Source: a virus. Taken from it: a stretch of 64,000 nucleotides of DNA. The position numbers and the translations under genes are program-made. The stretch spans positions 143,986-207,985 of the IMG/VR virus record IMGVR_UViG_3300044846_005229, one strand, 5' to 3'. The number at the start of each line of letters is the position of its first letter. Position 1 is the first letter of the stretch. This document shows positions 34,935-57,667 of this stretch, piece after piece. Under the pieces are notes generated by a model that had not been told where the DNA came from, searched no databases, and worked only from the letters and a program-made list of their open reading frames with translations.

Positions 34935-35684
34935 TTACATTTTCATCGTGGCATCCAGACGCAAGCCCCCAGAGAAGATAACCTTAGCCATTGTGTCAGG
35001 CAGCGTCCCCAGTAGGTGCAGAGAGTCTAAAGTGGAAAACATAAACATTTTGTTAAGCTCTTCCCTTACCCTTTCCCTGGAGACGCAAGCTAGCATTTCT
35101 ACTGCCAAGTCACTGCGCAATACAGCATAAGTTTCATCATCGGGGACGAATCCTTTGGTAATTTGGAACCTGAACCCTCTTAGAACTCTGAGGCCGTCTT
35201 CTCTGATCCGGTCAGCAGGGTTCCCAACGAAACGAAGAATTTTATTCTTAACGTCGGAAACTCCCCCGAAAGGGTCAATCAGAGAGCCATCAATAGCTTT
35301 GGCGATTGCCCCACTGGTAAAGTCTCTTCTGGCCAAATCATCAAGTAAAGTCCCCGGCACCACCCAATCAGGACGGCGACCATCGGTGTAGGGGCCATCT
35401 TTGCGGGCTAGTACAAAGTCAGCGACGGTGGTGCGGGCTTCTAGCACATGGCCCTTTGGGACCCGCGCACGGATGGTTAGAAACTCACGGCGAGATTCGA
35501 AAATCTGGAAACCTTGCTCGGCAAGCTGAGCTTCCATTGCTAAGAAAGCGCTATCTGCCGTGGCGAAGACACCCTCGGGTGCAACAACGGAAAAATCAAT
35601 GTCCTTGGATGGAATCCCGAGCAAACTGTCACGGACGCACCCACCAACCTCAAAAAATTCAAATTTTTCTGCTTGGCTTGTCAC
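34935..35684 (-). CDS. class II tRNA nucleotidyltransferase (CCA-adding-enzyme-family) head/neck domain protein, only 249 aa
   Basis: GGCVRDSLLGIPSKDIDF, RRDFTSGAIA and DGSLIDPFGGVSDVKNKILRFVGNPADRIREDGLRVLRGFRF match the Pol-beta-superfamily CCA-enzyme head and neck motifs. Confidence 0.8.
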   Translation of the reverse strand: MTSQAEKFEFFEVGGCVRDSLLGIPSKDIDFSVVAPEGVFATADSAFLAMEAQLAEQGFQIFESRREFLTIRARVPKGHVLEARTTVADFVLARKDGPYTDGRRPDWVVPGTLLDDLARRDFTSGAIAKAIDGSLIDPFGGVSDVKNKILRFVGNPADRIREDGLRVLRGFRFQITKGFVPDDETYAVLRSDLAVEMLACVSRERVREELNKMFMFSTLDSLHLLGTLPDTMAKVIFSGGLRLDATMKM

Positions 35685-35819
35685 TTTATACTCCGGGGTT
35701 GGTTACGGGTATTTTAGCGTACGGGTTGGCAAGCTGTCAAGGGGTGGTGCTTATGGGGTAGCCGAGGGTGGCCGATGCGGTTGTTTACGCCTACCTTAAT
35801 ACATTAAGTTTTGTTACTG

Positions 35820-36053
35820 TCATAACCCCGTGTCAAAGTGACGTTTACAAACCTTGAGTAACACTGATTCCCCCAAATATCTATCACTGTGTTCCAAAAA
35901 TGCACTCATTGCTTCCCCTTCAGAATTATAACCACCATAGGAATTTAAACGTTCACCAAACATATTCCTATCGTCAGGATCTACAAGGCGCCCTTCATCT
36001 GTCAATTCGCGCCAAATGTAGGAAGTTGTTATTTTGGTAGGTTGTTTTATCAT
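35820..36053 (-). CDS. hypothetical protein (77 aa)
   Basis: ORF track. Confidence 0.5.
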   Translation of the reverse strand: MIKQPTKITTSYIWRELTDEGRLVDPDDRNMFGERLNSYGGYNSEGEAMSAFLEHSDRYLGESVLLKVCKRHFDTGL

Positions 36054-36077
36054 GGGGGGTTAATATACCGAGTACAA

Positions 36078-36836
36078 TCATATCTTAGGCAATTCAACTA
36101 CTTTGCTGATAGGTTCTGGGGGTACCATGGCATCAGCCCCACCATCGGCCCCACCAATCATCTTACCGTTATCAGCCATAGCCGCCATGGCATTCACACC
36201 ATAACTATGAGCAGTTTGGATAAAATGGGCTTCAACTTCTGCCTTGGCTCCTTCAACCATTTCCTCAGTTGCTTCTCTAAAGGATTCCACTGCAAAGTTA
36301 AGGTTTTTAGGTAGATTACTAGCTTGAGACTTCAAATTAGCTACAATTCCCTTCAGTTTAACTTTACTGATAGACTTATCATTTAGTATCTCTTCCAGTT
36401 GGCCTGCAATGGCATTGATTCCTTGCATAGCCTTATCAAGTTCAACCCCAAACTCCTTATCGAAACTATCTTTCCGGCTCTTTTCTGGGTGTTTAATCCC
36501 AGGAATAGCAACCAGTGGGCCCTCAGAAAGGCGATTCAAAGTAATTAGGGTAGCTTGACTTCTACCTGCTCCGGAGCCAAATCTCCCCCATTGGGCTTCA
36601 CTCATTGAGAACTCAACAACTTGACCCTTAGGAAATACCCAATCCCTATGCAAATCCCTTTCCAACTCCGCAGTTTGGATGGTTACCGATATGTAATGCC
36701 CATGGCTCAAGTCAGACCCGAACAAATTAACTCCGGGTGAACATTGCGGGCGAGTAACTGTGATCACCCCGTAAGCAGGATGACTGTAAACTTGGTTGTT
36801 GTCTTTGGTGGTGATGGTGGGGAGTTGATTGCTCAT
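36078..36836 (-). CDS. hypothetical protein (252 aa), start moved to MSNQLPTITT
   Basis: The track N-terminus is a Gln-rich low-complexity stretch (CAG/CAA repeats). Confidence 0.5.
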   Translation of the reverse strand: MSNQLPTITTKDNNQVYSHPAYGVITVTRPQCSPGVNLFGSDLSHGHYISVTIQTAELERDLHRDWVFPKGQVVEFSMSEAQWGRFGSGAGRSQATLITLNRLSEGPLVAIPGIKHPEKSRKDSFDKEFGVELDKAMQGINAIAGQLEEILNDKSISKVKLKGIVANLKSQASNLPKNLNFAVESFREATEEMVEGAKAEVEAHFIQTAHSYGVNAMAAMADNGKMIGGADGGADAMVPPEPISKVVELPKI

Positions 36837-36930
36837 TGTTTTTGTTGGGGTTGTTGTTGCTGGGGGTTGTTGCTGTCGCTGCTGTTGTCGCTGTCGGGTT
36901 ATATGGAAAGGGCCCATATCCACTATCTAA

Positions 36931-38073: not shown

Positions 38074-38796
38074 TCAACTAAAGATATCCACTGTTTCTTT
38101 TTTCTTAATCTGCCAGTAAGTGTCTCGTGTAGCATTATACGCAGTTAAAATACCTGAGAATACAGCCCCGGTATCAATCCCGATACGGTCATTAGTTATG
38201 TCCGGATCTTTACCTACGATAGTATGACCATGGACAACTCTCTTTATTTTGGCGGTCCATTCATGCAGTTCAGGTCCCAGGCTAAGGAATGGTTCACGTA
38301 TCCATAGTAGGTTGTCGGCCTTTTTAGTTTTAATTTGTTCAAAGGGATCATGCCCAGGAAACACTCCAGCATGAATAAACATTGTGTCCCCCACAGTCAT
38401 GTAGATAGGTAGTTGTTTGATCCATTCATAGTGATTGGCCTTCATGTCTTCAAACTGTTTAAGATTGCCGCCATTCTTCACCCAAAGCGTCAAAGAATTG
38501 TATCCCCACGAGGTTTCGGATCCTACAACAACATCCATAAACATACGCTCATGGTTACCCCTCAGCACATTGAAACTTTCTAGTCCTGCACTTTCGGGGT
38601 CATCCATAAGCTCCTTGACTTTGTTAAGGACCTTCATATCTTCCCCGCCACGATCTATCAAGTCCCCCAGCAGAATCACTCGCGCCCTGGTTCCATTAAG
38701 CCACTTTAATGCGGCAGCTAAAACATCATAACGAGCGTGGATGTCACCAATGGCTACTACATCACCGGCATTTACTTTTTTCCTTAGTTTAGTCAT
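38074..38796 (-). CDS. calcineurin-like metallophosphoesterase (PPP/lambda-phosphatase-type: GDIHARYD ... GDLIDRGGED ... GNHE)
   Basis: Canonical metallophosphatase motifs I-III; directly downstream of the P-loop kinase gene. Confidence 0.8.
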   Translation of the reverse strand: MTKLRKKVNAGDVVAIGDIHARYDVLAAALKWLNGTRARVILLGDLIDRGGEDMKVLNKVKELMDDPESAGLESFNVLRGNHERMFMDVVVGSETSWGYNSLTLWVKNGGNLKQFEDMKANHYEWIKQLPIYMTVGDTMFIHAGVFPGHDPFEQIKTKKADNLLWIREPFLSLGPELHEWTAKIKRVVHGHTIVGKDPDITNDRIGIDTGAVFSGILTAYNATRDTYWQIKKKETVDIFS

Positions 38797-38891: not shown

Positions 38892-39389
38892 CTACGGACC
38901 CTTGCGGCAACCAACATATTCTACCATAGAAAAACCTTCCGTGTCAACCCCCCTTAAGGACGCTTGCAAGGCAGAGTGCATCTTTTCAATAACCAACTCA
39001 GGTACATTGCGACCCCTAGCTGCATTTTGCTTAAGACAAATTTCCAGGGGTGGATTCACTATGATGGCTCTAATGTTAGGGTACCCATAACTCTGGAGCA
39101 AAGCAATTGCATCCTTGCGGTATTTTGCCCTATAATGGGTGCCATCCATAATTAACACCTTACCAACATTTTCCTCTATCAGGTTTTCAATACGATCTTG
39201 AATAACCATCCATTCGCCCTGAATATTGGCATCCCCATATAATTCTGCTCGGATTTGGTCCCCGGAGAGGATTACTGCGTTTTCACGTTCAGCAAGCCTA
39301 GCAGCATAGGTGGATTTACCGGAGCCAGGGGCCCCTACCATGATGTAGGCGTAGTTGTGGTTGCAGGTGAGGGTGTTTATAGGGACCAT
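38892..39389 (-). CDS. P-loop nucleotide/polynucleotide kinase-like protein (GAPGSGKST Walker A), about 165 aa
   Basis: IMVGAPGSGKSTYAARLAERENAVILSGDQIRAELYGD resembles the Pnk/zeta-toxin-type AAA kinase fold. ATG directly preceded by a C11T11 tract; start moved from the track position. Confidence 0.65.
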   Translation of the reverse strand: MVPINTLTCNHNYAYIMVGAPGSGKSTYAARLAERENAVILSGDQIRAELYGDANIQGEWMVIQDRIENLIEENVGKVLIMDGTHYRAKYRKDAIALLQSYGYPNIRAIIVNPPLEICLKQNAARGRNVPELVIEKMHSALQASLRGVDTEGFSMVEYVGCRKGP

Positions 39390-39499
39390 AAAAAAAAAAA
39401 GGGGGGGGGGGTTCAAGGACCAGGAGTGTAGGGGTTCAAGGACCAAGGATGCCATAACCACATCAATTACACTTAGTATAGCATACCGCCAACCAAAGG

Positions 39500-39742
39500 T
39501 CAACGCCCGAAAGTCAAAAACCTATATCTATCCAACCAATCCTTTAGCAAATCATCATCTTCGACTACTTGGGAGTTTTGATTTACAAAATCTTCAACTA
39601 CCCACGCAACTTCTTTGAATTGCAATTCATTGCAATCCGGTTTGAATGAGACTTTGAGATTGGGGTATTTGGGTAGTATGGCCGCTAGTTGTGACTTTAG
39701 ACTTGATGGTGTGCTCATTTTGCAACTGCCGGGATTCAACAA
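39500..39742 (-). CDS. hypothetical protein (80 aa)
   Basis: ORF track. Confidence 0.45.
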   Translation of the reverse strand: MLNPGSCKMSTPSSLKSQLAAILPKYPNLKVSFKPDCNELQFKEVAWVVEDFVNQNSQVVEDDDLLKDWLDRYRFLTFGR

Positions 39743-40110: not shown

Positions 40111-40199
40111 AGGAAGAAGGGGGATTCGAACCCCCGGAGCCGCGAAAGCGACTCTGCAGTTTTCAAGACTGCTGCTATCAGCCACTCAGCCACTCTTCC
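40111..40199 (-). tRNA. tRNA-Ser(UGA), type II (long variable arm)
   Basis: Manual fold: acceptor GGAAGAG/TTCTTCC, D-arm, anticodon loop CUUGAAA, variable hairpin, T-loop GGGGGTTCGAATCCCCC. Confidence 0.75.
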
Positions 40200-40236
40200 A
40201 GTGGTTCATCTAATGGGCCTTCAATTGGGCCAGAAC

Positions 40237-41097
40237 CTATGACTTTATCTCACCTTGTTCTAATTCACTTGGGGTTTCTTTCTTTGGCCCCTTTGAAATT
40301 TTACGATTAGATTTGTAGCCGCACTTGCTTAATTTGTCTAGGAACAAAAATAGTCTATCTAACCAAGTTAGAGTGGGCAAGGTAGCTTTCGGTCCGAACA
40401 TCGGGGTTTTTCTGCCTTTCCAATTTAGGCCGATTCCGGCTTCACTTTCGATATGAATGACCACGATTTCCGGTAGTAACTCTCTTTTTTCTCGTGGCCA
40501 CTTTTTGCAATGCAAAACATCTGTGCGATCCGCAAATCCGTGCTTGCTCGGGTATTGACTTACCCCTGAACCTACTGGATTCCACATTTGGAAGTAACCG
40601 ATTGGCTCATAGCCCCCTTGCCAAGTTTTGTATTCAGCAATTCTGACCCCGACCGGATACCTGTCTAAATGGATAAAAATCCAAGAATCTTGAATGGGAG
40701 ATGGCTTATCTACAAACTTTATCCAATCTTCATAACCAGGGCACATCAAACGGTCGGCACCATAGATCTTTTCCTTATCTAGGGGTAAATTCTCTAGAAT
40801 TGATCGTGTTTGAGGGGGCAAGTAGATATCTGAGTCCAGGTGCAGAACCCATCCATCTAGGCTTAGTTTTTCTAACCCTGCATTTATTCCTTTGCCTTTA
40901 TTAAAGGAGTCACCGTTCTCATAAAAAACATCCGTTTGAACACACTCTACATTGTAGTATTCGCATAGCTTCTTAGTATCGTTATCCTTAGTATCGGTAA
41001 CGACTACGAGTTTATCAAATTGATTTCGGGTGCTGGGCAAGGTATGGGCCAGGAAGTCAGAGTAGTTGACGCAAATAATGACGGCTTCGAGTTTCAC
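40237..41097 (-). CDS. putative GT-A-fold glycosyltransferase (286 aa; DSD motif)
   Basis: VIICVNYSDFLAHTL...KLVVVTDTKDNDT...GINAGLEKL...LHLDSDIYLPP follows the nucleotide-sugar transferase GT-A pattern (pattern-level only). Confidence 0.45.
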   Translation of the reverse strand: MKLEAVIICVNYSDFLAHTLPSTRNQFDKLVVVTDTKDNDTKKLCEYYNVECVQTDVFYENGDSFNKGKGINAGLEKLSLDGWVLHLDSDIYLPPQTRSILENLPLDKEKIYGADRLMCPGYEDWIKFVDKPSPIQDSWIFIHLDRYPVGVRIAEYKTWQGGYEPIGYFQMWNPVGSGVSQYPSKHGFADRTDVLHCKKWPREKRELLPEIVVIHIESEAGIGLNWKGRKTPMFGPKATLPTLTWLDRLFLFLDKLSKCGYKSNRKISKGPKKETPSELEQGEIKS

Positions 41098-41146
41098 GGT
41101 TGGACGGGGGGGTAAGCCTACCTTAAATTTTACCCCCCCCCGTTCA

Positions 41147-41350
41147 TTAACCTTTCAAATTAGATTTGGCAAGGTCTAATGCGATCCAGTTTTTCAGGGT
41201 TTGAAGACTGCGAATTTTTGCCTGAAGGTGTGATAATCCTTCTTCGGAAAAAGACTCAGGACATAACTCTCGTTCAGCAATTAGTTCCCCTGCGTACATT
41301 TCAAGAGCTTCGATGGCTAGCTCTTTATCTTGTTTGGAAATTAGTGACAT
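41147..41350 (-). CDS. hypothetical protein (67 aa)
   Basis: ORF track. Confidence 0.45.
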   Translation of the reverse strand: MSLISKQDKELAIEALEMYAGELIAERELCPESFSEEGLSHLQAKIRSLQTLKNWIALDLAKSNLKG

Positions 41351-41353
41351 GGC

Positions 41354-42730: not shown

Positions 42731-42816
42731 TTTTTTTATAGTTGTTGGTGTAGGTTGTTAATGAAAAGGATACAAATTTTGGTTACAAACCATGGTCATT
42801 ATTACCCAAAGTCAAA

Positions 42817-42906
42817 TAGGCGCGTAGGGAATCGAACCCTAACTAGCCGGTAATCTGCCGGAGAGGTCTTCATAAGGGACCCTGTGCTACCGTACACCAC
42901 ACGCCC
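42817..42906 (-). tRNA. type II tRNA (long variable arm) with anticodon loop reading CUUAUGA (apparent UAU) and a C31:A39 mismatch; identity uncertain
   Basis: Manual fold: acceptor GGGCGTG/CGCGCCT (two G:U pairs), T-loop TAGGGTTCGATTCCCTA, variable hairpin CCGG-N7-CCGG. Anticodon assignment is not secure. Confidence 0.5.
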
Positions 42907-43319: not shown

Positions 43320-43391
43320 CACCCTGAGAGGGATTTGAACCCCCGACCGACGACTTAGAAGGTCGCTGCTCTTCCACTGAGCTACCAGGGC
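43320..43391 (-). tRNA. tRNA-Arg(UCU)
   Basis: Manual fold: GCCCTGG-TA-GCTCAGTGGAAGAGC-A-GCGAC-CTTCTAA-GTCGT-CGGTC-GGGGGTTCAAATCCCTC-TCAGGGT. Confidence 0.75.
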
Positions 43392-43795: not shown

Positions 43796-43825
43796 TTTGG
43801 GTGTAGGTGTGTTGTTTTTCTTAAC

Positions 43826-49614: not shown

Positions 49615-49867
49615 CTAGTACGGCCTGAACAGCAAGGGAAAGATTATCCATTGGTCGGAAACTCCATCGGGATCAGAACTTGGCAATTATTTCGCCGGAT
49701 AAACATCAGGGGGATACAACTGATTGATTGCGTCTCTAATTAGGAGAGCAGCGCTTTAAGGTTGTGATAGGCATTTTGCTGTGGGGGTTGTTTGGAACTG
49801 TTATCAGTGCCACTCTAGCATGGTTGCTGCTAGGTGTCAACTCTTAACCAAGTTATAAATGTAGTGA

Positions 49868-49980
49868 ATGGGACCAGTAGGATTTGAACCTACACCTCTC
49901 CTTTAACGTAGGAATTTAATTGCTGATGTATCTTTGACAAGATAACTTTCTTTAGCGCTCTGTCGTTGAGCTATGGTCCC
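49868..49980 (-). tRNA. tRNA-like gene with canonical acceptor, D and T arms and a candidate anticodon arm (TTCCT-ACGTTAA-AGGAG, GUU?), interrupted by an about 41-nt insertion between the D and anticodon arms
   Basis: GGGACCA-TA-GCTC-AACGACA-GAGC-G-[CTAAAGAAAGTTATCTTGTCAAAGATACATCAGCAATTAAA]-TTCCTACGTTAAAGGAG-AGGT-GTAGGTTCAAATCCTAC-TGGTCCC-A. The insertion contains its own hairpin TATCTT-GTCA-AAGATA. Confidence 0.5.
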
Positions 49981-50456
49981 TTGTTTGCTTCGCAAATAGC
50001 TTGTTGAAACATGGTTTAGCTAGATAGTTGGTTTTCCGATTTTGAAGGGGATGGTTGCTGAACTATCTACGTTTGCCGAAGGCAAAGTCGAAGAGGCAAG
50101 ATTCGAACTTGCGTATGGCGGTTCCTTTAGCGCATTTGGTGTTGCTGAGCTACCTAAAGCATAACTAGATAGTCCTTTTGCATTACCGCCGCCTTACCAC
50201 TTGGCTACTCTTCGTTTTGGGTGTCTGGGTGTCTTAACCGTTAAAGGTCAACAAGGTGAGTTTTGCTGGATTTGAACCATTCCCCTTTGTTGCCCTGGTG
50301 AACTACCAGGGAAGCTAACTTTATTTAAACAAGATGGTTGGTTTTTCTGTTACAAAGAAAGGTTAGATTGCTGAACCATCTTACGGGATTGCCTTACTTA
50401 CCGCCCATTAACCCTATTTCCATCAGGCGAATACCATACCCACAGAGTCATACCTT

Positions 50457-51929
50457 TCAGTATATACCGCGTCCCGCATCAGGGACAATGGGGGTAATTG
50501 CATTGCCGGTAAGAACTGCGGTCAGGATTGACGGAGAGCAACCGCTAACGAGAGCGGTACCGGAATCATGGACCTTCATCGGGACGTTATCTGAGGAATT
50601 GACATTCCAGAAGATGACATCAGGCAAGCTATAACCAGCTTGGGCATACTTGATTCGAATTGCTTCGTAGTTAGTGACTTTTTTTCCGCTATACCCCCAA
50701 CCAGAACCAGTGCCACCCATGACAACACAGTCATCAAACTGCATGTCTGAGACAATAATCAGTTTGCGGGGCATGTCTGACTCTGGAATGTTGTTCCGAA
50801 CTGCAGTATCCAGAATAAGGTCAAACGTCTTTTGGATGTCAGTGTTACCACCCCAATCTGCTCGGCTCAGGTTTCTAACCTTGCTGGAGAGACTATTGCC
50901 AGTCACAGTTTGTAGGGAGGGGTTACCCGAAAATGTTAGAAACTTGTTTTTCCAGATGCCAGTATTACGCTCTGCGATATACATCGCCAGAGAGATGGAT
51001 ACTGCCATCGGACGACCCTCCATGGAACCGCTAACATCGGCAACAACAAGCCCATTCAATTCCTTGCCTTCCATGTAGTTGGGTAGAGCCTGCCAGAGGA
51101 GTTCAAGAGTATCGTTTGATTCGTTGTTATAGAGACACTTCTCAACGATGTCATACGGGTACAAAGTACCGGCATTGATTTTTGCCTCGCCTTTCTTGAC
51201 TGCATCGAGGTAAGACTGGTAGCGAGCACCATCATGGTTAGCAAAAGCTTTCCGATACATGAAGCCTGCACGAGAAGGCAACTTGCTATACTCAATGGCG
51301 TCCCACTCACGGGCACACATTGGTTGTTCTACGATATTGATTTGGGTGCGAAGCGCAGTCAGGGCCTTGCGGTATTGACGCTCATTCCAACCCATTGCCT
51401 TAGCGATAAGACGGCCAACCCGCTTGGATTCCTTGCTAGAAGCGTTAATGGAAGGTAGCCATTTTGCTAGTAGTGACACTGGGTTTCCAACTTCGGTGTT
51501 CAGGTCAGTATTAAGCTGCGTCTTAATTGCTTCTAGGGCGATGACCCAAACTAGCGTCCCTTCGAGGGCCACAACATCGTCCCAGCGACCGTACTGCGGG
51601 ATCAGGCCTACCAGCTTAGCTCCAATGGTCGCATCATTGCGAACCAGCTCCTTGAAGACTTCCCGGAAGATTTTTCGTTCTCCTTGCCCAATCCCCCTAA
51701 TATCACGTGCCCAAAACAGGATCCGGGTCGCAGTTTCAGGATCTTCGGCATAGGCTGACTTAAAGAGTTTAATGGCTGCATCAACATTATCACGGCAAGC
51801 TGCGATTTTACCGAAAAGGTCTAGGTTCTTTTGGCCCGTGGACCTATAGGCCTTTGCGCCGTTTGCAGTTGTGGTGATATTGGAGTTGGTATCCAGTTGG
51901 TTCTCAAGTGCATTCAAAAAGGTTGTCAT
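50457..51929 (-). CDS. vWA-domain protein with a large N-terminal helical (TROVE/DUF2828-like) domain; Ro60/Rsr-like architecture
   Basis: MIDAS motif VVADVSGSMEG plus downstream vWA strands; N-terminal about 330-aa helical region. Start moved to MTTFLNALEN. Confidence 0.65.
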   Translation of the reverse strand: MTTFLNALENQLDTNSNITTTANGAKAYRSTGQKNLDLFGKIAACRDNVDAAIKLFKSAYAEDPETATRILFWARDIRGIGQGERKIFREVFKELVRNDATIGAKLVGLIPQYGRWDDVVALEGTLVWVIALEAIKTQLNTDLNTEVGNPVSLLAKWLPSINASSKESKRVGRLIAKAMGWNERQYRKALTALRTQINIVEQPMCAREWDAIEYSKLPSRAGFMYRKAFANHDGARYQSYLDAVKKGEAKINAGTLYPYDIVEKCLYNNESNDTLELLWQALPNYMEGKELNGLVVADVSGSMEGRPMAVSISLAMYIAERNTGIWKNKFLTFSGNPSLQTVTGNSLSSKVRNLSRADWGGNTDIQKTFDLILDTAVRNNIPESDMPRKLIIVSDMQFDDCVVMGGTGSGWGYSGKKVTNYEAIRIKYAQAGYSLPDVIFWNVNSSDNVPMKVHDSGTALVSGCSPSILTAVLTGNAITPIVPDAGRGIY

Positions 51930-52079
51930 TTTTCTTCTCTCAAGTTGATTGTTTTGTGTTTGTGTTTCGGATACAAATAATAGCTGTATCAACTTTGCCC
52001 CTAGGAGTTAATTTTAGGGGTGGTGGTGGGGGGCACTGACGGCCCCGATATTGGGCAGTTTGTAACTTAGCTGGGTCAA

Positions 52080-52280
52080 TCAGCGCAGGTTGTCCACACC
52101 GGCAATTTCTCCTTGGAGACGTTCTACGGCTTCACGGGCCATATCTTCCCAGAAGGAAGGATTGAGGGCTAGGTTAATGCCTTTTTCAATCCAATCGGTC
52201 GTCTCTGCGCTGTGGATAGCTTCCCTTCCGGTTTTGGTAAATCGACCTCGGGATTCGTTCCAGATTTGTTCAAAATTCAT
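52080..52280 (-). CDS. hypothetical protein (66 aa), start moved to MNFEQIWNES
   Basis: Promoter gctagtatagcatgg ... gtcaatgcc at 52310-52355. Confidence 0.45.
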   Translation of the reverse strand: MNFEQIWNESRGRFTKTGREAIHSAETTDWIEKGINLALNPSFWEDMAREAVERLQGEIAGVDNLR

Positions 52281-52369
52281 GATTGTTACTAGGGACTCAA
52301 TGTTTAAGCATTCATTGCTAGTATAGCATGGGTGACCCAAAAGTCAATGCCTGCGAGGGAATCCTACGA

Positions 52370-52912
52370 TTAGTACCCTAAATCGGGAGGAGCTTTGCCC
52401 CCAACTACAGCCGGTGAAAACCTAACTACGGTTACCTCCCCCATGTCCCCCAAATCTTCGGCAAACTTGTTCAAGCTAGCGAGAACCCTATCGGGGTTTC
52501 CACCTGCCAAACCACACCCAATCATTGGGAATCCGATTTTAACGGGAATTCTTGTTTCAGGGGGTAAACCCTGGCGACATACCTTAGCATATAACCTATT
52601 GAGAAATGTCTCAAAGGCTTCGTACTCAAATATGTCTTTGCCACGCCCAAATGTAAACTGGGTATAGGCGTTAATAATCGTAAAGCCACAACCATTTGCC
52701 CCCACAACGTCAACTTCGGAAAAGGTCCCGAGTTTATTCCGGGTGCCATACTTTGTCTGTCTATCGGCGATAGCCACCTCTGGCCACCTCTTCACAATTT
52801 GACCGGCGATACCGCTAGCCATCGTATGGAAGCAATTGGCACCATGACAAATAATGTCGAAGTCACCATTGTCTGCCATTGTGAGTAGGTTGTTGTCAAT
52901 AATTGTTAACAT
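52370..52912 (-). CDS. Macro-domain (ADP-ribose-binding/hydrolase) protein
   Basis: DFDIICHGANCFHTMASGIAGQI matches the N.AAN..L.GGGGV.GAI signature, and IGFPMIGCGLAGGNPDRVLASLNKF the C-terminal Macro motif. Confidence 0.7.
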   Translation of the reverse strand: MLTIIDNNLLTMADNGDFDIICHGANCFHTMASGIAGQIVKRWPEVAIADRQTKYGTRNKLGTFSEVDVVGANGCGFTIINAYTQFTFGRGKDIFEYEAFETFLNRLYAKVCRQGLPPETRIPVKIGFPMIGCGLAGGNPDRVLASLNKFAEDLGDMGEVTVVRFSPAVVGGKAPPDLGY

Positions 52913-52965
52913 CCGATTAGGTCCAATTTGGGTGGGGAATTTGTGAGATGGCGATACCCTACCAC

Positions 52966-53793
52966 TCAAAGTGGCGGGTGGTTAAGTTTATTGAGCACAT
53001 ATTCAAGTCTGGTGGGCTTTAGATCAAGGGGGATGTTATCTAAATTACCTGATGCGCCCGTACAATCGCCTTCTACTCCTGTGCAGTCCCCAATTAAGTT
53101 AGAGCAGTCCCCAATTAAGTTAATTACCCTCCCGTATAAACCAGTGCAATTGCCGGTTAGGCCAGAAATAAATCCCCTCAGATTGGAGCAATCACCAAAT
53201 AAATCCGGGTTAATGGTCCCTAAAGCCCCCGATAGGTCACCTGTTAATTTAGGGTTAATCATCCCTTTAACACCACTCAAGTCCCCGGTTAAGTCTTTAT
53301 TAAGAGTACCGGATAAGCGTCCCCATGGGTCAATACCTAAACCCATATTACCGTACAAATTAGAAACATCCCCCTCCAATGATGGCAAGATTCTTCCCCT
53401 AAGATCGGAGTTTATCTCACCTGTCAAATAACTCACATCTCCAATAAGCCTAGGATTGATCGTTCCACTGAGGTTAGAACAATCACCGAAGAGGAAAGGG
53501 CTTAGTTCGTCATAGGAGAGGCTCGGGTTTAACCCCTTTTGTACAGCCCCCTCACCATCTAACCAAAAAAATCTTTCGCTAGATTCAAAGAAGTCATGTA
53601 TCTTGCTTCTCATTTCTAAGATTTCCGGCTCCAGGGGTATTTGAGGGGTTGCTTCAAATAAGGGTACAAGCTTGCCAACCGCTTCATCCCATGCGTAAGG
53701 TGTACGGATATTGTCACCTAGCTTAAACCTGACTTCATTTAAGTCATAATAAAAGTCTAGCAGAACATTAAGATTGTCTTGTAACTGAGTCAT
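52966..53793 (-). CDS. repeat protein with about 14 tandem 11-residue G(D/N).S.L.G.I(N) units (LRR or beta-helix-like); possible fibre or adhesin
   Basis: ORF track; repeats visible at protein and DNA level; start moved to MTQLQDNLNV. Confidence 0.5.
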   Translation of the reverse strand: MTQLQDNLNVLLDFYYDLNEVRFKLGDNIRTPYAWDEAVGKLVPLFEATPQIPLEPEILEMRSKIHDFFESSERFFWLDGEGAVQKGLNPSLSYDELSPFLFGDCSNLSGTINPRLIGDVSYLTGEINSDLRGRILPSLEGDVSNLYGNMGLGIDPWGRLSGTLNKDLTGDLSGVKGMINPKLTGDLSGALGTINPDLFGDCSNLRGFISGLTGNCTGLYGRVINLIGDCSNLIGDCTGVEGDCTGASGNLDNIPLDLKPTRLEYVLNKLNHPPL

Positions 53794-53822
53794 ATGTTGG
53801 GAGTTTGTTGGTTTGTCAATCA

Positions 53823-53895
53823 AGGGGGCAAGGAATCGAACCCCCCCCCCCCCATCAGGCAGCAATACCCTGCGATGCCAACCATCGGTATGCCC
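53823..53895 (-). tRNA. degenerate tRNA-like remnant (T-loop GGTTCGATTCC, partial acceptor), disrupted by a C13/G13 homopolymer
   Basis: Manual inspection; T-stem and acceptor pairing incomplete. Overlapped by the C-terminus of ORF 53855..54097. Confidence 0.3.
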
Positions 53896-54093
53896 CAAGG
53901 CCGGAAGGAGAATCAGGTTCGGATGCTACGAGTTGACGAAGGGTACCAATCTGGGCCTTGCGGTTGCCTTCATAAATCACAAATACTGAAGCAAAACCGG
54001 AAACATCGTTAGTTCCGAAAAAGGCGCCGGGGGCTTGCATGGTGGTACGAATTGGGATGATGTTGTTGGTGGCGGTAGTAGCGGCGGAGGAGG

Positions 54094-55277: not shown

Positions 55278-55730
55278 TCAAATCCCCATCGAAAGGTGCG
55301 CTTCATCGCGAATCCCCTCAAGGATGACCCCAAGTTTGTTGGCGCCATCTCCGGTCACAACATCAACACCCCAATAAGTGTCTCCCCAAGTGTTGCCTTC
55401 GATTAGCTTTGCGTTCCCTGTTTGTGCTAGGAGGTTTTTTAGATCTGGGTTCTGAAATTTAATGCGTAGTAACTCTTCCATAACTTTGTCTTTTCTAAGT
55501 TCCCACCCTATAGGGTCAAAGTCCTTTAAAATGCCGTTGCGGTTCCCGGCGGCTTTAGCCTCGCTTGGAGACTGCATCTTTGCGATTTGGTGGCGAGTTT
55601 CGGAGTCCTGAGTCTTAGCTGCTTGAAAGGCGTGTTCGACTGTGGGGTATTTGATCCCTTCGTATTCTAGAACGCTCTCATAAAAGTTTGACAGAAAGCT
55701 GAATTGGCCTGAGAATTTGGTAATGGTCAT
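55278..55730 (-). CDS. NADAR-domain (YbiA/DUF1768) protein
   Basis: FSFLSNFYESVLEYEGIKYPTVEHAFQAAK ... EGNTWGDTYWGV matches the NADAR signature. Start moved to MTITKFSG, giving an ATGA overlap with the upstream gene. Confidence 0.75.
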   Translation of the reverse strand: MTITKFSGQFSFLSNFYESVLEYEGIKYPTVEHAFQAAKTQDSETRHQIAKMQSPSEAKAAGNRNGILKDFDPIGWELRKDKVMEELLRIKFQNPDLKNLLAQTGNAKLIEGNTWGDTYWGVDVVTGDGANKLGVILEGIRDEAHLSMGI

Positions 55731-56077
55731 TTGTCTCCGAATTCGATAAACAGATTCATTTCCCAATAGTCAAATTGATCTTGGATGGCGTCCTTCGCTT
55801 CGTTGTATTCTTCCTCGGTAAGGCAGCCGGGGTTCTGATATAGGACCTTCATTCTTTCTAAAGAATTTTGCAGGCCCCGGATATATTCAGATTTGTACTT
55901 GCGTTTTTGGTATTCTTCCAAAGATTCCTTGACGCCGTCAGGCCAATAAATGGTGTCGGTTCGGGAGTCAAATCCTGGTAAGTCTCTGCTGAGGGCTTTG
56001 GAATTTTTAGCGGCTTGCTGATTGCACCATTCTTGTGCCCAGGAGAGTGGGCGAGTTGAGTCTGCTTCGAGTATCAT
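55727..56077 (-). CDS. hypothetical protein (116 aa), operon partner upstream of NADAR
   Basis: ORF track; 4-nt overlaps at both ends. Confidence 0.55.
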   Translation of the reverse strand: MILEADSTRPLSWAQEWCNQQAAKNSKALSRDLPGFDSRTDTIYWPDGVKESLEEYQKRKYKSEYIRGLQNSLERMKVLYQNPGCLTEEEYNEAKDAIQDQFDYWEMNLFIEFGDK

Positions 56078-56298
56078 TCTTTACCGTGAGGGTTGTAGTC
56101 TTTGTCGAGATTACATGTGACCCAGTTGATTTCATCTCGCATACTATACATTCTTCCGGACACAAAACCTCTCAGAAAAGTCTCAAAGGTTGAACCCAAA
56201 CGAATGTCATCTTCGGGGGTTTGTCCCCACATGGTGCGGAAGGCTTCGATTGCTTCCGGCGTGGTTCCGGGCGGATATAGGTAGGTAGTGACTGTCAT
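56074..56298 (-). CDS. hypothetical protein (74 aa), start moved to MTVTTYLYPP
   Basis: 4-nt overlaps with neighbouring genes. Confidence 0.45.
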   Translation of the reverse strand: MTVTTYLYPPGTTPEAIEAFRTMWGQTPEDDIRLGSTFETFLRGFVSGRMYSMRDEINWVTCNLDKDYNPHGKE

Positions 56299-56519
56299 GT
56301 GTTGTGAATGTTGGGGCGATGAATGTAGCAGGTAAGAGCAAGGAGTGTGATGCCGTATGACACCGGGATAGAATTCACAGGGGTTGACATGACCCCTACG
56401 GCCAAGGAAATACAAGCAATCAAACAATGGAAAGCAAAAATAATTGCTAGCTCCAGAGTGGAATTTCTTTGCCTATAACGGCGAATGTGCCAGTTTGCGT
56501 AGCGAATTAGGGGGAGCAT
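56295..56519 (-). CDS. small membrane protein (74 aa)
   Basis: ORF track; two hydrophobic segments. Confidence 0.4.
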   Translation of the reverse strand: MLPLIRYANWHIRRYRQRNSTLELAIIFAFHCLIACISLAVGVMSTPVNSIPVSYGITLLALTCYIHRPNIHNT

Positions 56520-56575
56520 TTTATTTCAGGGATAAACTTTTGGGCATCAGCCAACGGGTCCTTTGGGCACTGGCA

Positions 56576-57667
56576 TCAGCCACTCTTCTTCCCCTTAGAT
56601 AGCAACCACTCATTACTAATGGCCTTAAAGGAAAACTCAGAGTCATTGGACTTGAATACTAAGCCCTCACGTTTAACGTTAGGATTCATGGACGGGCCAT
56701 CGGCGTACGCTAGTAGCTCATCTAGGTTGGCGAAACTATCGGTTACACACATTGCGGGGTGTAGGACAGGGGCATGGGTTAAATCAGCGCCTAATGGAAC
56801 CAGGTACTTGTCCAAGAGGTTCATTCTGGCCCCTGGCTTCATGTAGGTCTGGTTGTCGATATCGAAGATGTCGAACAGATATAGCCGTTGTCCCTTGATT
56901 CCTTCCTGATTGCCCTGGATGCCTTCTCCAAGGGTTTCCGACTGCAAGGCAATACTGTGACCAGTCTTCCCATTGTATGCAAGCATAGCATCGATAATGC
57001 CCTGGTCCCTAGCAGCCTTCCAGAAACTATTGCCTTCGGTTTCCTTGAGATCAAGGTTACGGCTGCAAACCCCAATGTCACCGTCTTTGACGTAAATCGT
57101 ACATGAAGATCCGTCGAGCTTCAGGGTAACTTCGTAGGTCTCATTCCTGTGGGTCTCAAAGATTTCGCTAGCGATATTCTGACAACGTTCCTGGTCTGTC
57201 TTCACAAGGAAGCTCGGGAAGTTGCCTTTTGCAATGCCAGCCAAACAAGCCGGTACAGGAGCCTCCCATTTCTGAATGCCGAGAATTTCGGTTACGTCGT
57301 CTCCTTCCTGAAGGCCCCTCTCAAATGCGGTGACATAGTAACTGAAGTCTACATAGAGCTTTAGAGAAATAGGCAACAGCAACCCTTGGCTGAGTTGCCC
57401 ACGGAGCTTAACGGTCTTGAGACGTTCGCCCTTCACGCCGTTATACTCACGGGGCTCTTTCCCATTAGAAAGGAAGGGCGCCAACTCGTGAGGAATAAAT
57501 GAGTCGGGTTCTGCGTAAATTACCAAATCCCCTACTTCATACTTCCCCACAGAATCCACAACCCACCAGCCATTCACACGGTAGGCACAGATTCTATCGG
57601 CTTCAGGGATGGGGCGAATCTCAGCAATGCGCTGGACAGATGCAAGTTTGCGTTCGATGTTTGCCAT
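56576..57667 (-). CDS. ATP-dependent RNA (or DNA) ligase-family protein, nucleotidyltransferase motif I KLDGSS, with an N-terminal OB-like extension
   Basis: KxDG adenylyltransferase motif in VTLKLDGSSCTIYVK. N-terminal IAEIRPIPEADRI...VNGWWVV...KYEVGDLVIYAEPDSFIP resembles Rnl-family ligases with an N-terminal domain (pattern-level). Confidence 0.65.
   Translation of the reverse strand: MANIERKLASVQRIAEIRPIPEADRICAYRVNGWWVVDSVGKYEVGDLVIYAEPDSFIPHELAPFLSNGKEPREYNGVKGERLKTVKLRGQLSQGLLLPISLKLYVDFSYYVTAFERGLQEGDDVTEILGIQKWEAPVPACLAGIAKGNFPSFLVKTDQERCQNIASEIFETHRNETYEVTLKLDGSSCTIYVKDGDIGVCSRNLDLKETEGNSFWKAARDQGIIDAMLAYNGKTGHSIALQSETLGEGIQGNQEGIKGQRLYLFDIFDIDNQTYMKPGARMNLLDKYLVPLGADLTHAPVLHPAMCVTDSFANLDELLAYADGPSMNPNVKREGLVFKSNDSEFSFKAISNEWLLSKGKKSG

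What the first reader, a model, noticed from the sequence alone, without database searches (positions are those of the whole stretch)
34935..57667. Distributed tRNA/RNA maintenance toolkit
Within about 23 kb the element encodes a 249-aa CCA-adding-family nucleotidyltransferase (34935-35684), the kinase/phosphoesterase pair, three to five tRNA genes (40111-53895), CysRS (23143-24570), an AlaRS remnant, a TROVE/vWA Ro60-like protein (50457-51929; Ro60/Rsr proteins act in RNA quality control and repair with RtcB, established knowledge), a CPR receiver-like protein (6534-6965) and an RNA ligase (56576-57667). This is an unusually complete RNA end-repair, tRNA 3'-end repair and RNA-surveillance set for one mobile element. 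It suggests the host deploys tRNA- or RNA-cleaving defences that this element counters.
Basis: partly seen in the sequence, partly recalled or inferred. Interest (0 to 1): 0.8.

Follow-up and report, generated by a model that had tools for sequence, protein, structure and literature searches.

The report
Phage RNA-repair kit with Ro-like RNP
A large cyanophage carries a known type of RNA-repair gene set, and two of its supposed tRNA genes appear to be tRNA-shaped partner RNAs of a Ro60-like protein, belonging to a widespread phage RNA family that is absent from Rfam 15 and the searched literature.

Summary
The listed genes are nearly all real. I confirmed:
- a short class II CCA-type nucleotidyltransferase;
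- an adjacent bacterial-Pnkp-type kinase and lambda-type metallophosphoesterase;
- an Rnl5 (NgrRnl-like) RNA ligase;
- a full CysRS and a cREC domain protein;
- a DUF2828/vWA protein whose model best matches Ro60.

I found no AlaRS remnant and no tRNA near 53895.

Such RNA-repair kits are already described for jumbo phages and cluster L mycobacteriophages.

The unexpected part is directly downstream of the Ro-like gene. Two "tRNAs with inserts" (50088-50214 and 49869-49980) alternate with two hairpin RNAs (50329-50384 and 50021-50069). All four share one module: a helix followed by single-stranded ACAGCAAY.

The same module flanks DUF2828 genes in phages of cyanobacteria, enterobacteria, mycobacteria, Bacillus, Listeria, Enterococcus and Campylobacter, and in gut Firmicutes contigs. 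In Shigella phage Sf17 and mycobacteriophage Archie it sits in YrlA-like tRNA mimics. The cyanophage versions are circular permutations of these.

These RNAs are most likely a new class of Y-like RNAs. No Rfam 15 family matches them. Binding to the protein and any function remain untested.

The parts
34935..35684 (-). Short (249 aa) class II tRNA nucleotidyltransferase with head and neck domains only. It is probably a CCA-adding or CCA-repairing enzyme.
   Evidence: Pfam PolyA_pol 4.4e-17. PHROG_24229 tRNA nucleotidyltransferase 1.3e-51. PDB CCA-adding enzymes 6ibp and 1miv match only their residues ~80-250. Motifs GGCVRD/DID, RRDF and EDGLR are present. Relatives at 72% identity lie in two contigs that also carry the Ro-like gene.
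38892..39503 (-). P-loop polynucleotide 5'-kinase of the bacterial Pnkp type. The true start codon is probably internal.
   Evidence: Pfam AAA_33 9.6e-23. PHROG_505 polynucleotide kinase and PHROG_8238 positions 5-142. PDB 4gp6/4gp7 at 3e-12 (by my recognition the C. thermocellum Pnkp kinase domain) and Pnkp1 4xrp. GAPGSGKST P-loop.
38074..38796 (-). Binuclear metallophosphoesterase of the lambda-phosphatase clade, lying directly downstream of the kinase. It is the candidate 2',3'-phosphate or cyclic-phosphate end-healing enzyme.
   Evidence: Pfam Metallophos 2.9e-12. PHROG_246 and PHROG_8238 positions 173-308. PDB lambda phosphatase 1g5b 7e-8, plus a partial match to 4j6o, which I recognise as the CthPnkp phosphatase domain. 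The kinase-then-phosphatase gene order matches the domain order of bacterial Pnkp (established knowledge).
56576..57667 (-). ATP-dependent RNA ligase of the Rnl5 family (NgrRnl-like), with an N-terminal OB domain and a nucleotidyltransferase domain.
   Evidence: Pfam PHA02142 OB 1.2e-23 and RNA_ligase 1.7e-23. PDB 5cot Naegleria gruberi RNA ligase 7.5e-85 over the full length. KLDG motif. It lies 4-8 kb upstream of the Ro-like gene, on the same strand, in six related contigs.
50457..51929 (-). Ro60-like ring protein: a DUF2828 helical-repeat domain plus a DUF7788 vWA domain with an intact MIDAS motif (DVSGS).
50329..50384 (-). Simple Y-like RNA (Y2a). A 9-10 bp stem (AAGAUGGUU/AACCAUCUU) closes a large loop that begins with CAGCAAU.
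   Evidence: Sequence and RNAfold. Stem-plus-motif scan. The surrounding segment (about 50273-50416) is 98% identical in L002 and 92% in L026 and L020. No Rfam match at E<=1.
50088..50214 (-). tRNA-shaped Y-like RNA (t4). It has acceptor, D and T arms; a GCGGU/ACCGC stem encloses an insert made of an A-rich linker, a 7-bp hairpin and UCAGCAAC.
   Evidence: Rfam tRNA 47.6 bits with 62 nt where 7 are expected. ARAGORN -i. 12 homologues; compensatory changes in the hairpin are visible in alignment A1, which holds 10 of the sequences including the window copy. Model R1 scores it 80.1 bits, though it was a training sequence.
50021..50069 (-). Simple Y-like RNA (Y2b). A 9-bp stem (UAGAUAGUU/AACUAUCUA) closes a loop that begins with CAGCAAC.
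   Evidence: The same element occurs between the tRNA-shaped RNAs in relatives L011-L026 and in Synechococcus phage B3.
49869..49980 (-). tRNA-shaped Y-like RNA (t3). The order is acceptor, D arm, A-rich linker, hairpin UAUCUUG..CAAAGAUA, AUCAGCAAUU, a short hairpin with a 7-nt loop, T arm, acceptor.
   Evidence: Rfam tRNA 47.8 bits with 54 nt where 13 are expected. 13 homologues. Covariation on the 31-sequence family alignment. The loop sequence is not conserved between orthologues. No encoded CCA.
40111..40199 (-). tRNA-Ser(UGA), canonical.
   Evidence: ARAGORN. Rfam 55.7 bits.
43320..43391 (-). tRNA-Arg(UCU), canonical. AGA and AGG together make up 43% of Arg codons in the window's ORFs.
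   Evidence: ARAGORN. Rfam 64.6 bits. Codon count.
42817..42906 (-). Atypical 90-nt tRNA-like gene that ARAGORN calls Ile-UAU. It has a long variable arm and an irregular anticodon stem-loop.
   Evidence: ARAGORN only. It is absent from the Rfam hits at E<=1. Status uncertain.
23143..24570 (-). Full-length cysteinyl-tRNA synthetase.
   Evidence: Pfam tRNA-synt_1e 1.7e-119, DALR_2 and CysS_C.
6534..6965 (-). cREC (cyclic-phosphate-processing receiver) domain protein.
   Evidence: Pfam cREC_REC 1.9e-26. Iyer et al. 2021 propose it as a cyclic-phosphate end-processing enzyme linked to RNA ligases.
31572..32384 (-). SPFH/Band-7 protein. This family also accompanies the same repair genes in cluster L mycobacteriophage LeBron.
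   Evidence: Pfam Band_7 5.5e-19. LeBron gp49 is Band-7-like.

Best explanation
The window is part of a large, uncultured cyanophage-like genome. It carries two linked things.

**1. A conventional phage RNA-repair and tRNA-maintenance set**
- A Pnkp-type 5'-kinase and a lambda-type phosphoesterase would heal the 5'-OH and 2',3'-phosphate ends left by metal-independent RNases. A cREC protein may also take part.
- An Rnl5 ligase would seal the resulting 3'-OH/5'-phosphate nicks in folded tRNA.
- A minimal class II nucleotidyltransferase would rebuild or add CCA. None of the phage RNA genes encodes CCA.
- The phage's own tRNAs and CysRS would top up supply.

**2. A Ro60-like ribonucleoprotein module**
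- The DUF2828/vWA ring protein is probably transcribed together with four small RNAs that lie just downstream.
- Each RNA presents a helix followed by single-stranded ACAGCAAY. I infer that this is the protein's binding site. It occupies the place that GNCGAA/GGUCCGA occupies in YrlA and Y RNAs.
- Two of the RNAs also carry a complete tRNA-like body. I infer that, as in Rsr-YrlA, this body tethers the ring to tRNA-recognising proteins such as processing, repair or nuclease enzymes, or else acts as a decoy for them.
- In this lineage the tRNA mimic is circularly permuted, so its ends lie in an open acceptor stem. It could then be cut out by RNase P and RNase Z and given a CCA tail like a real tRNA.

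**Shown versus inferred**
- Shown: gene identities, the Ro60-like fold, RNA conservation and covariation, and the association between the RNAs and the gene across phyla.
- Inferred: binding, processing, and any anti-defence role.
For: **Enzyme identities:**

**Ro60-like fold**
- The MIDAS motif DVSGS is invariant.
- Same-family proteins have independently been called Ro60-like or Rsr-like: Bas63 gp130, Listeria phage CKA15_055 and cluster L gp53.

**RNAs in the cyanophage lineage**
- Relatives carry up to 33 tRNA genes per locus. Only the 2-4 genes directly downstream of the DUF2828 gene have inserts, and this holds in every related locus that extends far enough downstream.
- In the 31-sequence alignment, 98.2% of cells form pairs, against 36-46% when partners are shifted. 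Compensatory (both-sided) changes occur at 17 of 22 pairs, including 3 of 6 in the insert hairpin.

**The motif tracks the gene**
- On the gene strand, 97 of 302 CAGCAA sites have a flanking stem of at least 7 bp. On the opposite strand the figure is 3 of 154.
- 72 of those 97 lie within 300 nt upstream or 1 kb downstream of the gene.
- Searching from the RNA side, the 10 module-like pattern hits in IMG/VR whose upstream flank was stored all had a DUF2828 gene beside them.
- The same module sits next to DUF2828 genes in phages of Bacillus, Listeria, Mycobacterium, Shigella, Enterococcus, Campylobacter and Vibrio, and in gut Firmicutes contigs.

**Topology and genomic linkage**
- The Sf17 and Archie RNAs fold as a terminal stem, ACAGCAA, an anticodon-like hairpin, a T arm, a closed acceptor hairpin and a D arm. 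This is the YrlA architecture.
- The ligase stays 4-8 kb from the Ro-like gene in six related contigs. In Listeria phage LP-048, an RtcB ligase sits 1.3 kb downstream of the DUF2828 gene.
- A promoter-like site lies upstream of the gene, with no terminator-like site before the end of the RNA cluster.
Against: - No binding, expression or processing data exist for this phage.
- The structural model is only moderately confident (pLDDT 63, pTM 0.49).
- Sequence and profile searches find neither Pfam TROVE nor Ro60 in the PDB.
- The repair genes are spread over more than 23 kb among unrelated genes, so concerted action is assumed rather than shown.
- The phosphoesterase's best full-length PDB match is a protein phosphatase.
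- The short nucleotidyltransferase lacks the body and tail domains that hold tRNA, and its specificity is unknown.
- Many of the related loci are close relatives, so the motif counts are not independent.
- The host and any host nuclease are unknown.
Confidence: 0.62

Rival explanations
1. The two insert-bearing genes are true tRNAs with short introns. The phage's kinase, phosphoesterase and ligase would then be a phage-encoded tRNA-splicing pathway of the healing-and-sealing type used in yeast and plants.
For: - The inserts of roughly 40-57 nt lie in the anticodon arm of otherwise good tRNA cloverleaves.
- The genome encodes a 5'-kinase, a phosphoesterase and a 3'-OH/5'-phosphate ligase.
Against: - No splicing endonuclease was found among about 70 ORFs scanned.
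- The insert lies between the D arm and the anticodon stem, or in the 5' strand of that stem, not at position 37/38.
- The residual 'anticodon' loops differ between orthologues and often lack U33 or a purine at 37.
- The most conserved part of the gene is the insert itself.
- The same helix-plus-ACAGCAA module occurs in neighbouring RNAs with no tRNA body, and in permuted mimics with a closed acceptor stem that could never be aminoacylated.
Confidence: 0.07
2. The helix-plus-ACAGCAA elements are cis-acting signals of tRNA-array transcripts, such as processing sites, promoters or attenuators. They would be unrelated to the DUF2828 protein, which merely tends to sit in tRNA regions.
For: - The elements often lie among tRNA genes and have conserved ends (...YWG) that could mark cleavage sites.
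- One CAGCAAC copy in the window (49823-49829) lies in the spacer of a sigma-70-like promoter.
Against: - In loci with 25-33 tRNAs, the elements cluster at the DUF2828 gene rather than through the array.
- The window's other tRNAs at 40-43 kb have none.
- The elements also flank the gene where few or no tRNAs are nearby, as in Campylobacter, KVP40-like Vibrio phage and Archie.
- The same motif is conserved across hosts from at least four phyla, which argues against a host-specific promoter or RNase site.
Confidence: 0.12
3. There is no concerted toolkit. The listed genes are independent accessory genes that happen to share a large phage genome. For example, the phosphoesterase could be a protein phosphatase like lambda PPase, the kinase a nucleotide kinase, and the nucleotidyltransferase a poly(A) polymerase.
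For: - The genes are scattered over 6.5-57.7 kb among unrelated functions such as DnaN, a glycosyltransferase, a pentapeptide-repeat protein and NADAR.
- The best PHROG hit for the phosphoesterase is 'NinI-like serine-threonine phosphatase'.
- Poly(A) polymerases also match the nucleotidyltransferase, at about 1e-12.
Against: - The kinase and phosphoesterase are adjacent, in the Pnkp domain order, and both match PHROG_8238, a 737-aa kinase-phosphatase-ligase type protein.
- The ligase stays close to the Ro-like gene in six related contigs.
- The same combination recurs in unrelated phages: cluster L and jumbo phages.
- Ro60-like genes sit next to RNA ligases of a different family in Listeria phage, and in the Salmonella rsr-rtcBA operon (PMC7790460 abstract).
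Confidence: 0.15

Closest known systems
Bacterial Rsr (Ro60) with YrlA/YrlB Y RNAs (Chen et al. 2014, PMC4201824), and the phage phiLo Ro60-Yrl complex (PMC12135203)
   Same: - A ring-shaped Ro60-like protein with a vWA domain.
- Several small RNA genes on the same strand, close to the protein gene.
- Each RNA has a terminal stem with a short conserved motif near the 5' strand.
- At least one RNA per locus carries a tRNA-like domain with T arm, acceptor and D arm. Simpler partners resembling YrlB lie beside it.
- There is genomic linkage to an RNA ligase.
   Different: - The protein belongs to Pfam DUF2828/DUF7788, not TROVE (PF05731), and shows no sequence-level match to solved Ro60 proteins.
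- The conserved RNA motif is ACAGCAAY, not GNCGAA(N)G or GGUCCGA.
- In the cyanophage lineage the tRNA mimic is circularly permuted, with an open acceptor stem and a capped terminal stem, so gene finders call it a tRNA with an intron or a pseudo-tRNA.
- Up to eight such RNAs surround one gene.
Phage RNA-repair gene sets: T4 Pnkp + Rnl1 against PrrC (established knowledge), and the jumbo-phage repertoires reviewed by Iyer et al. 2021 (PMC7824862)
   Same: - A polynucleotide kinase, a phosphoesterase and an ATP-dependent RNA ligase.
- A CCA-adding enzyme and a cREC domain protein.
- A ROT/TROVE-like protein with a tRNA-like partner.
- The phage's own tRNAs.
   Different: - End healing is split into two proteins of the bacterial Pnkp/lambda-phosphatase type, rather than the T4 kinase-HAD fusion.
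- The ligase belongs to Rnl5, not Rnl1 or Rnl2.
- The CCA enzyme is truncated to head and neck.
- No target nuclease is known.
Bacterial Pnkp-Hen1 RNA repair system (Clostridium thermocellum; established knowledge)
   Same: The kinase domain is homologous (4gp6, 3e-12). The phosphoesterase belongs to the same lambda-phosphatase clade. The kinase-then-phosphatase order is the same.
   Different: - There is no fused ligase domain and no Hen1 methyltransferase was found.
- Sealing would be done by a separate Rnl5 ligase 17 kb away.
Naegleria gruberi RNA ligase NgrRnl (Rnl5 family)
   Same: Full-length homology (7.5e-85), with an N-terminal OB domain, a nucleotidyltransferase domain and the KxDG motif.
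   Different: It is encoded by a phage. Its substrate and partners are unknown.
Felixounavirus Bas63 gp130 (PhageMaP preprint, PMC11482910) and Listeria phage CKA15_055 (PMC12282133)
   Same: - Judging by close relatives of these phages, they are the same protein family. Felixounavirus and Listeria phage cka14 match the window protein at 37-38.5% identity over 90-94% of its length.
- They lie next to tRNA genes or highly transcribed non-coding regions.
- Both sets of authors speculated that Y RNAs are encoded nearby.
   Different: Neither paper, in the passages I read, defines the RNAs. Here a shared motif, a structure and coordinates are given. A role in countering the 'ppl' defence system is reported only for gp130.

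Membership tests
Ro60/TROVE ribonucleoprotein (Ro60, Rsr) | Helical-repeat ring followed by a vWA domain with a MIDAS site | tested here: met
Ro60/TROVE ribonucleoprotein (Ro60, Rsr) | Sequence signature of the TROVE domain (Pfam PF05731) or detectable sequence homology to solved Ro60 proteins | tested here: not met
   Pfam gives DUF2828 and DUF7788 only. phmmer and profile searches of PDB sequences find no Ro60.
Ro60/TROVE ribonucleoprotein (Ro60, Rsr) | Small structured RNA genes on the same strand close to the gene, at least one with a tRNA-like domain | tested here: met
   Four RNAs lie within 600 nt downstream in the window. The pattern is conserved in 27 related loci and in distant phages.
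Ro60/TROVE ribonucleoprotein (Ro60, Rsr) | Y RNA recognition motif GNCGAA(N)G or GGUCCGA on the 5' strand of the terminal stem | tested here: not met
   The conserved motif is (U/A)ACAGCAAY, placed just after the 5' strand. For the YrlA motif.
Ro60/TROVE ribonucleoprotein (Ro60, Rsr) | Physical binding of the RNAs by the protein | not testable with these tools
   This needs RIP-seq or EMSA.
Rnl5 ATP-dependent RNA ligases (NgrRnl/DraRnl) | N-terminal OB-like domain plus a C-terminal nucleotidyltransferase domain with the lysine motif KxDG, and full-length homology to NgrRnl | tested here: met
Rnl5 ATP-dependent RNA ligases (NgrRnl/DraRnl) | Sealing of 3'-OH/5'-phosphate nicks in duplex RNA | not testable with these tools
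   Biochemical assay required.
Class II CCA-adding enzymes | Head-domain motifs A-D (GGxVRD..DxD, RRD, EDxxR) | tested here: met
Class II CCA-adding enzymes | Body and tail domains that bind the tRNA elbow | tested here: not met
   The protein is 249 aa and matches only residues ~80-250 of the ~400-aa enzymes.
Class II CCA-adding enzymes | Specificity for CCA, as opposed to CC-adding, A-adding or poly(A) activity | not testable with these tools
   Poly(A) polymerases also match at about 1e-12.
Bacterial Pnkp-type end-healing enzymes | P-loop polynucleotide kinase homologous to the CthPnkp kinase domain | tested here: met
   4gp6 at 3e-12 over residues 9-151.
Bacterial Pnkp-type end-healing enzymes | Binuclear metallophosphoesterase acting on 2',3'-phosphate RNA ends | tested here: inconclusive
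   The Metallophos fold and lambda-phosphatase clade are confirmed, but only a partial match to the CthPnkp phosphatase 4j6o is seen. Substrate is unknown.
Canonical tRNA (for 49869-49980 and 50088-50214) | Uninterrupted 5-bp anticodon stem with a 7-nt loop and a conserved anticodon | tested here: not met
   Inserts of roughly 40-57 nt are present, and the residual loop varies between orthologues.
Canonical tRNA (for 49869-49980 and 50088-50214) | Acceptor, D and T helices with a T-loop | tested here: met
   Covariation at 14 of the 16 pairs in these helices.

The most novel reading that the evidence does not exclude
DUF2828 'Ro-like' proteins and the helix-ACAGCAA RNAs form a pan-phage ribonucleoprotein that has not been described as such in Rfam 15 or in the papers I could search. 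It would be present in phages of at least four bacterial phyla.

- Its modular RNAs range from bare hairpins to full tRNA mimics.
- The mimicry would engage host tRNA-directed enzymes or defences.
- In cyanophages the mimic has been circularly permuted into a tRNA-gene format. It would then be matured by RNase P and RNase Z and given a CCA tail, possibly by the phage's own minimal CCA enzyme, and would work together with the nearby RNA ligase.
Probability: 0.3. Interest if true: 0.8.

Novelty: new variant of a known kind. Interest (0 to 1): 0.6.

Why it matters
The repair kit itself adds one more example to a known class.

**What the RNA finding offers**
- It gives sequence, structure and coordinates for the long-suspected RNA partners of a Ro60-like protein family found in at least 701 sequenced phages. 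These include well-studied Felix O1-like, P100-like and cluster L phages.
- In one of these phages the protein has been reported to counter a defence system. In another, abundant unexplained non-coding transcripts map beside the gene.
- A defined motif makes protein-RNA binding, processing and anti-defence roles directly testable.

**Other consequences**
- It explains the "pseudo-tRNA" annotation beside this gene in Synechococcus phage B3, and probably similar "intron-containing tRNA" calls elsewhere.
- It shows the same tRNA mimic evolving in two circularly permuted topologies.

Tried and rejected
- **Megablast of 34-58 kb against 50,697 phage records:** no match. The nearest cultured relatives share only single genes: S-CREM1 for the ligase and B3/B23 for the Ro-like gene.
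- **Sequence and profile searches of the Ro-like protein against PDB sequences:** no Ro60 found. Only the fold comparison found it.
- **Literature search for DUF2828:** only incidental plant and tardigrade mentions. Burroughs & Aravind 2016 is not held in the library. The supplements of Chen et al. 2014 are not held either, so I could not check whether any DUF2828 phages were in their list.
- **Rfam:** no family other than tRNA matches the four RNAs, and none matches the Sf17 or Archie RNAs.
- **Short-intron hypothesis:** considered first and then rejected (see rival explanations).
- **The TCAGCAAY motif as a general intergenic signal:** it is enriched in the window (13 observed, 4.5 expected), but the structured copies are confined to the Ro-like locus.
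- **Search of genome contigs for a host:** only 40%-identical copies in gut Firmicutes MAGs, with no host clue.
- **AlaRS remnant:** not found in seven Pfam batches.
- **Not done:** I did not build a second covariance model for the simple hairpin RNAs, and I did not attempt a deeper alignment for a better protein model.

Full report
**What the window is**

Almost all genes lie on the - strand, and GC content is about 46%. The Pfam and PHROG content is that of a large tailed phage. It includes a DnaN clamp, an SPFH protein, a pentapeptide-repeat protein, DUF932, DUF4942, an HNH endonuclease, NADAR and a glycosyltransferase. No sequenced phage is similar at the DNA level.

The nearest single-gene relatives are cyanophages:
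- the ligase is 60% identical to that of Synechococcus phage S-CREM1;
- the Ro-like protein is 57% identical to that of Synechococcus phages B3 and B23.

IMG/VR holds closer uncultured relatives, at 74-93% identity for the Ro-like protein, on contigs of up to 277 kb.

**Checking the listed components**

All of the following are on the - strand.

- **Nucleotidyltransferase, 34935-35684.** It has the PolyA_pol head domain. It matches class II CCA-adding enzymes over head and neck only. It keeps the catalytic and nucleotide-selecting motifs GGCVRD..DID, RRDF and EDGLR. It lacks the body and tail domains. Whether it adds CCA or poly(A) cannot be decided from sequence.
- **Kinase and phosphoesterase, 38892-39503 and 38074-38796.** The two genes are adjacent.
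  - The kinase's best solved relatives are 4gp6/4gp7 (3e-12), which I recognise as the polynucleotide kinase domain of Clostridium thermocellum Pnkp, and Pnkp1.
  - The phosphoesterase belongs to the lambda-phosphatase clade, to which the Pnkp phosphatase also belongs.
  - Both match successive parts of PHROG_8238, a 737-aa kinase-phosphatase-ligase type protein.
- **Ligase, 56576-57667.** It is a full-length homologue of Naegleria gruberi RNA ligase, 7.5e-85, of the Rnl5 family, and has the KLDG motif.
- **CysRS, 23143-24570.** It is complete.
- **cREC protein, 6534-6965.** It has a cyclic-phosphate-processing receiver domain.

Two claims were not confirmed:
- I found no AlaRS remnant among about 70 ORFs.
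- There is no tRNA near 53895. That site is a poly-G run followed by GGTTCGATTCC inside an ORF, and neither ARAGORN nor Rfam calls it.

**The Ro-like protein**

Gene 50457-51929 is DUF2828 plus DUF7788 (vWA) in Pfam, with no TROVE hit. Sequence and profile searches find no Ro60 among PDB sequences.

Isolated vWA domains rank next. The MIDAS motif DVSGS is invariant.

Proteins of the same family have independently been called Ro60-like or Rsr-like:
- Bas63 gp130;
- Listeria phage CKA15_055;
- the cluster L mycobacteriophage protein annotated "Ro-like RNA binding protein".

The family occurs in 701 phage records.

**The unexpected part: RNAs beside the Ro-like gene**

Rfam's tRNA model finds two more tRNA-like genes just downstream of the Ro-like gene, at 50088-50214 and 49869-49980. 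Each carries an insert of roughly 40-57 nt in the anticodon arm.

Both are conserved at 80-98% identity in 12-13 related contigs, insert included.

In the related loci there are up to 33 tRNA genes, most of them upstream of the Ro-like gene. The only insert-bearing ones are the 2-4 directly downstream of it. This holds in every related locus that extends far enough downstream. Synechococcus phage B3 has one in the same place, annotated "tRNA-Pseudo".

The 31 distinct sequences share this layout:
1. acceptor stem and D arm;
2. an A-rich linker;
3. a 5-7 bp hairpin (YAUCUWG..CWAGAUR);
4. two or three nucleotides;
5. a near-invariant single-stranded ACAGCAAUU (or UCAGCAAY);
6. a short hairpin with a non-conserved 7-nt loop, or an enclosing stem;
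7. T arm and acceptor.

Covariation strongly supports this structure:

| Measure | Named structure | Control |
|---|---|---|
| Cells forming a pair | 98.2% | 36-46% with partners shifted by 1-3 columns; 72.8% in column shuffles |
| Pairs with changes on both sides | 17 of 22 | 3-9 with shifted partners |
| Insert hairpin pairs with changes on both sides | 3 of 6 | not given |

**A second, simpler element**

Between and before the tRNA-shaped RNAs lie two hairpin RNAs, at 50329-50384 and 50021-50069. Each has a 9-10 bp stem closing a large A/U-rich loop that begins with CAGCAAY.

The stem sequence is the same UAUCU/AGAUA-type helix found in the inserts. Both element types therefore present one helix with the motif attached to the 3' end of one strand.

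**The module follows the gene across phyla**

Reading the flanks of DUF2828 genes in distant phages shows the same stem-ACAGCAAY-loop-stem RNAs on the gene strand. The phages examined were:
- Bacillus phage PK-3;
- Listeria phage LP-048;
- mycobacteriophage Archie;
- Shigella phage Sf17;
- Enterococcus phage EF1;
- Campylobacter phage F361;
- Vibrio phage phi-pp2.

Eight of nine gut Firmicutes MAG contigs were also scanned, and each of the eight carries two or more of them directly upstream of the gene.

The counts are as follows:

| Set of CAGCAA sites | Total sites | With a flanking stem of at least 7 bp |
|---|---|---|
| Gene strand, all fetched loci | 302 | 97 |
| Opposite strand | 154 | 3 |

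Of the 97, 72 lie within 300 nt upstream or 1 kb downstream of the gene. Many loci are close relatives, so these counts are not independent.

I also searched in the other direction. Scanning IMG/VR with AGATACNNACAGCAATT gave 16 loci where the match had both the hairpin and a T arm. All 10 whose upstream flank was stored carry a DUF2828 gene there.

No Rfam 15 family other than tRNA matches any of these RNAs.

**Topology**

In Sf17 (5922-6042) and Archie (5036-5157), RNAfold gives this order:
1. a terminal stem;
2. single-stranded ACAGCAA;
3. an anticodon-like hairpin;
4. a T arm;
5. a closed acceptor hairpin;
6. a D arm;
7. an A-rich linker leading back to the terminal stem.

This is the architecture of YrlA, the tRNA-mimicking Y RNA bound by bacterial Rsr. 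[quoted passage not shown]

The cyanophage RNAs have the same connectivity, but the acceptor stem is open and the terminal stem is capped by a loop. They are circular permutations of the Sf17 and Archie form, which is why gene finders read them as tRNAs with introns. Some simple elements carry only a T-arm-like hairpin in the loop, so the family is modular.

**Context that bears on function**

- None of the five RNA genes encodes CCA.
- AGA and AGG together are 43% of Arg codons, which fits a supply role for tRNA-Arg(UCU).
- A sigma-70-like promoter lies upstream of the Ro-like gene at 52347-52320. No terminator-like site occurs before the next promoter at 49840-49812. This suggests one transcript that is later processed.
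- The Rnl5 ligase lies 4-8 kb upstream of the Ro-like gene, on the same strand, in six related contigs. The nucleotidyltransferase is found in two of the same contigs.
- In Listeria phage LP-048, an RtcB ligase lies 1.3 kb downstream of the DUF2828 gene.
- The cluster L phage LeBron combines a phosphoesterase, a Band-7 protein, a Ro-like protein, PNK and an RNA ligase.
- Jumbo phages are already described as combining RNA ligases, kinases, phosphoesterases, cREC, CCA-adding enzymes and ROT/TROVE proteins with tRNA-like partners.

**Interpretation**

The repair set is best read as a conventional heal-and-seal and CCA-repair pathway with its own tRNA supply. It is a new member of a known class. 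The claim that it counters host RNases is an inference, and no host or nuclease is known.

The Ro-like locus is best read as a Ro60-Y-RNA-type ribonucleoprotein that uses a different protein family signature and a different RNA motif. The tRNA mimic would tether or decoy tRNA-recognising factors.

Two published observations make the RNAs plausible and testable, but neither defines them:
- gp130 of Bas63, a Felixounavirus protein that I take to belong to this family, counters the ppl defence system;
- abundant non-coding transcripts map upstream of the Listeria phage homologue.

I rate the intron, cis-signal and no-system alternatives as less likely, for the reasons given under rival explanations.

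**Limits**

- There are no expression or binding data.
- The structural model is of moderate quality.
- The loci are related, so counts are inflated.
- I could not check whether earlier YrlA surveys included any DUF2828 phages.
- The function of the ACAGCAA motif is inferred only from its position and conservation.

Noticed in passing
window 42817-42906 (-): A 90-nt tRNA-like gene that ARAGORN calls Ile-UAU. It has a long variable arm and an anticodon stem with a C-A mismatch, which could also be read as a 9-nt loop. Rfam's tRNA model does not report it even at E<=1. It may be a non-standard decoder or a degenerate gene. Phage B3 has an ordinary 74-nt tRNA-Ile-TAT near its Ro-like gene.
   Followed up: partly
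window 53840-53862 (-): A run of 12 G followed by GGTTCGATTCC (T-loop-like) inside ORF 52966-53898. No tool calls a tRNA there.
   Followed up: yes
window 55278-55766 and 52370-52969 (-): A NADAR domain protein (2.8e-25) and a weak Macro-domain protein (4e-4, below the Pfam cut-off) lie between the Ro-like gene and the ligase. These are candidate enzymes for reversing ADP-ribosylation, which would be another counter-defence theme.
   Followed up: no
window 48222-48998 (-): A second calcineurin-like metallophosphoesterase (3.7e-5) lies about 0.9 kb downstream of the RNA cluster.
   Followed up: no
window 34231-34680 (-): An HNH endonuclease ORF lies immediately downstream of the nucleotidyltransferase gene.
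   Followed up: no
window 50215-50328 (-): The spacer between Y2a and t4 holds a hairpin (CCCUGGU..ACCAGGG) and a degenerate T-arm-like GGUUCAAAUCC. Relatives L002, L020 and L026 have a third tRNA-shaped RNA after this point, which the window lacks. L002 carries about 1.5 kb of extra sequence there.
   Followed up: partly
window 28279-28303 (-): Three CAGCAA copies spaced 9 nt apart lie just upstream of the dnaN start. This is a short tandem repeat with no flanking stem and is probably unrelated to the RNA module.
   Followed up: no
L033 (Listeria phage LP-048) 1469-2020: A ROOL RNA match (90 bits, just under the gathering score of 99.1) lies about 1 kb upstream of the DUF2828 gene. It sits next to two ACAGCAA hairpin RNAs at 2662-2719 and 2751-2810. 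These may be the 'three highly transcribed regions' reported for phage CKA15.
   Followed up: partly
L012 11915-12017, L019 7285-7387, L015 11093-11189, L016 6869-6966, L018 11287-11392: wcaG RNA motifs (66-82 bits) recur a few kb downstream of the Ro-like gene in the tRNA-rich cyanophage relatives. Locus L025 has a group I intron at 1236-1435.
   Followed up: no
window 20519-21442, 18528-20060, 46603-47433, 25789-26565 (-): Four further domain proteins: pentapeptide-repeat plus DUF5758, DUF4942, DUF932, and DUF2786/DUF7168. From memory, I associate several of these with plasmids and conjugative elements. Here they sit inside an otherwise phage-like region.
   Followed up: no
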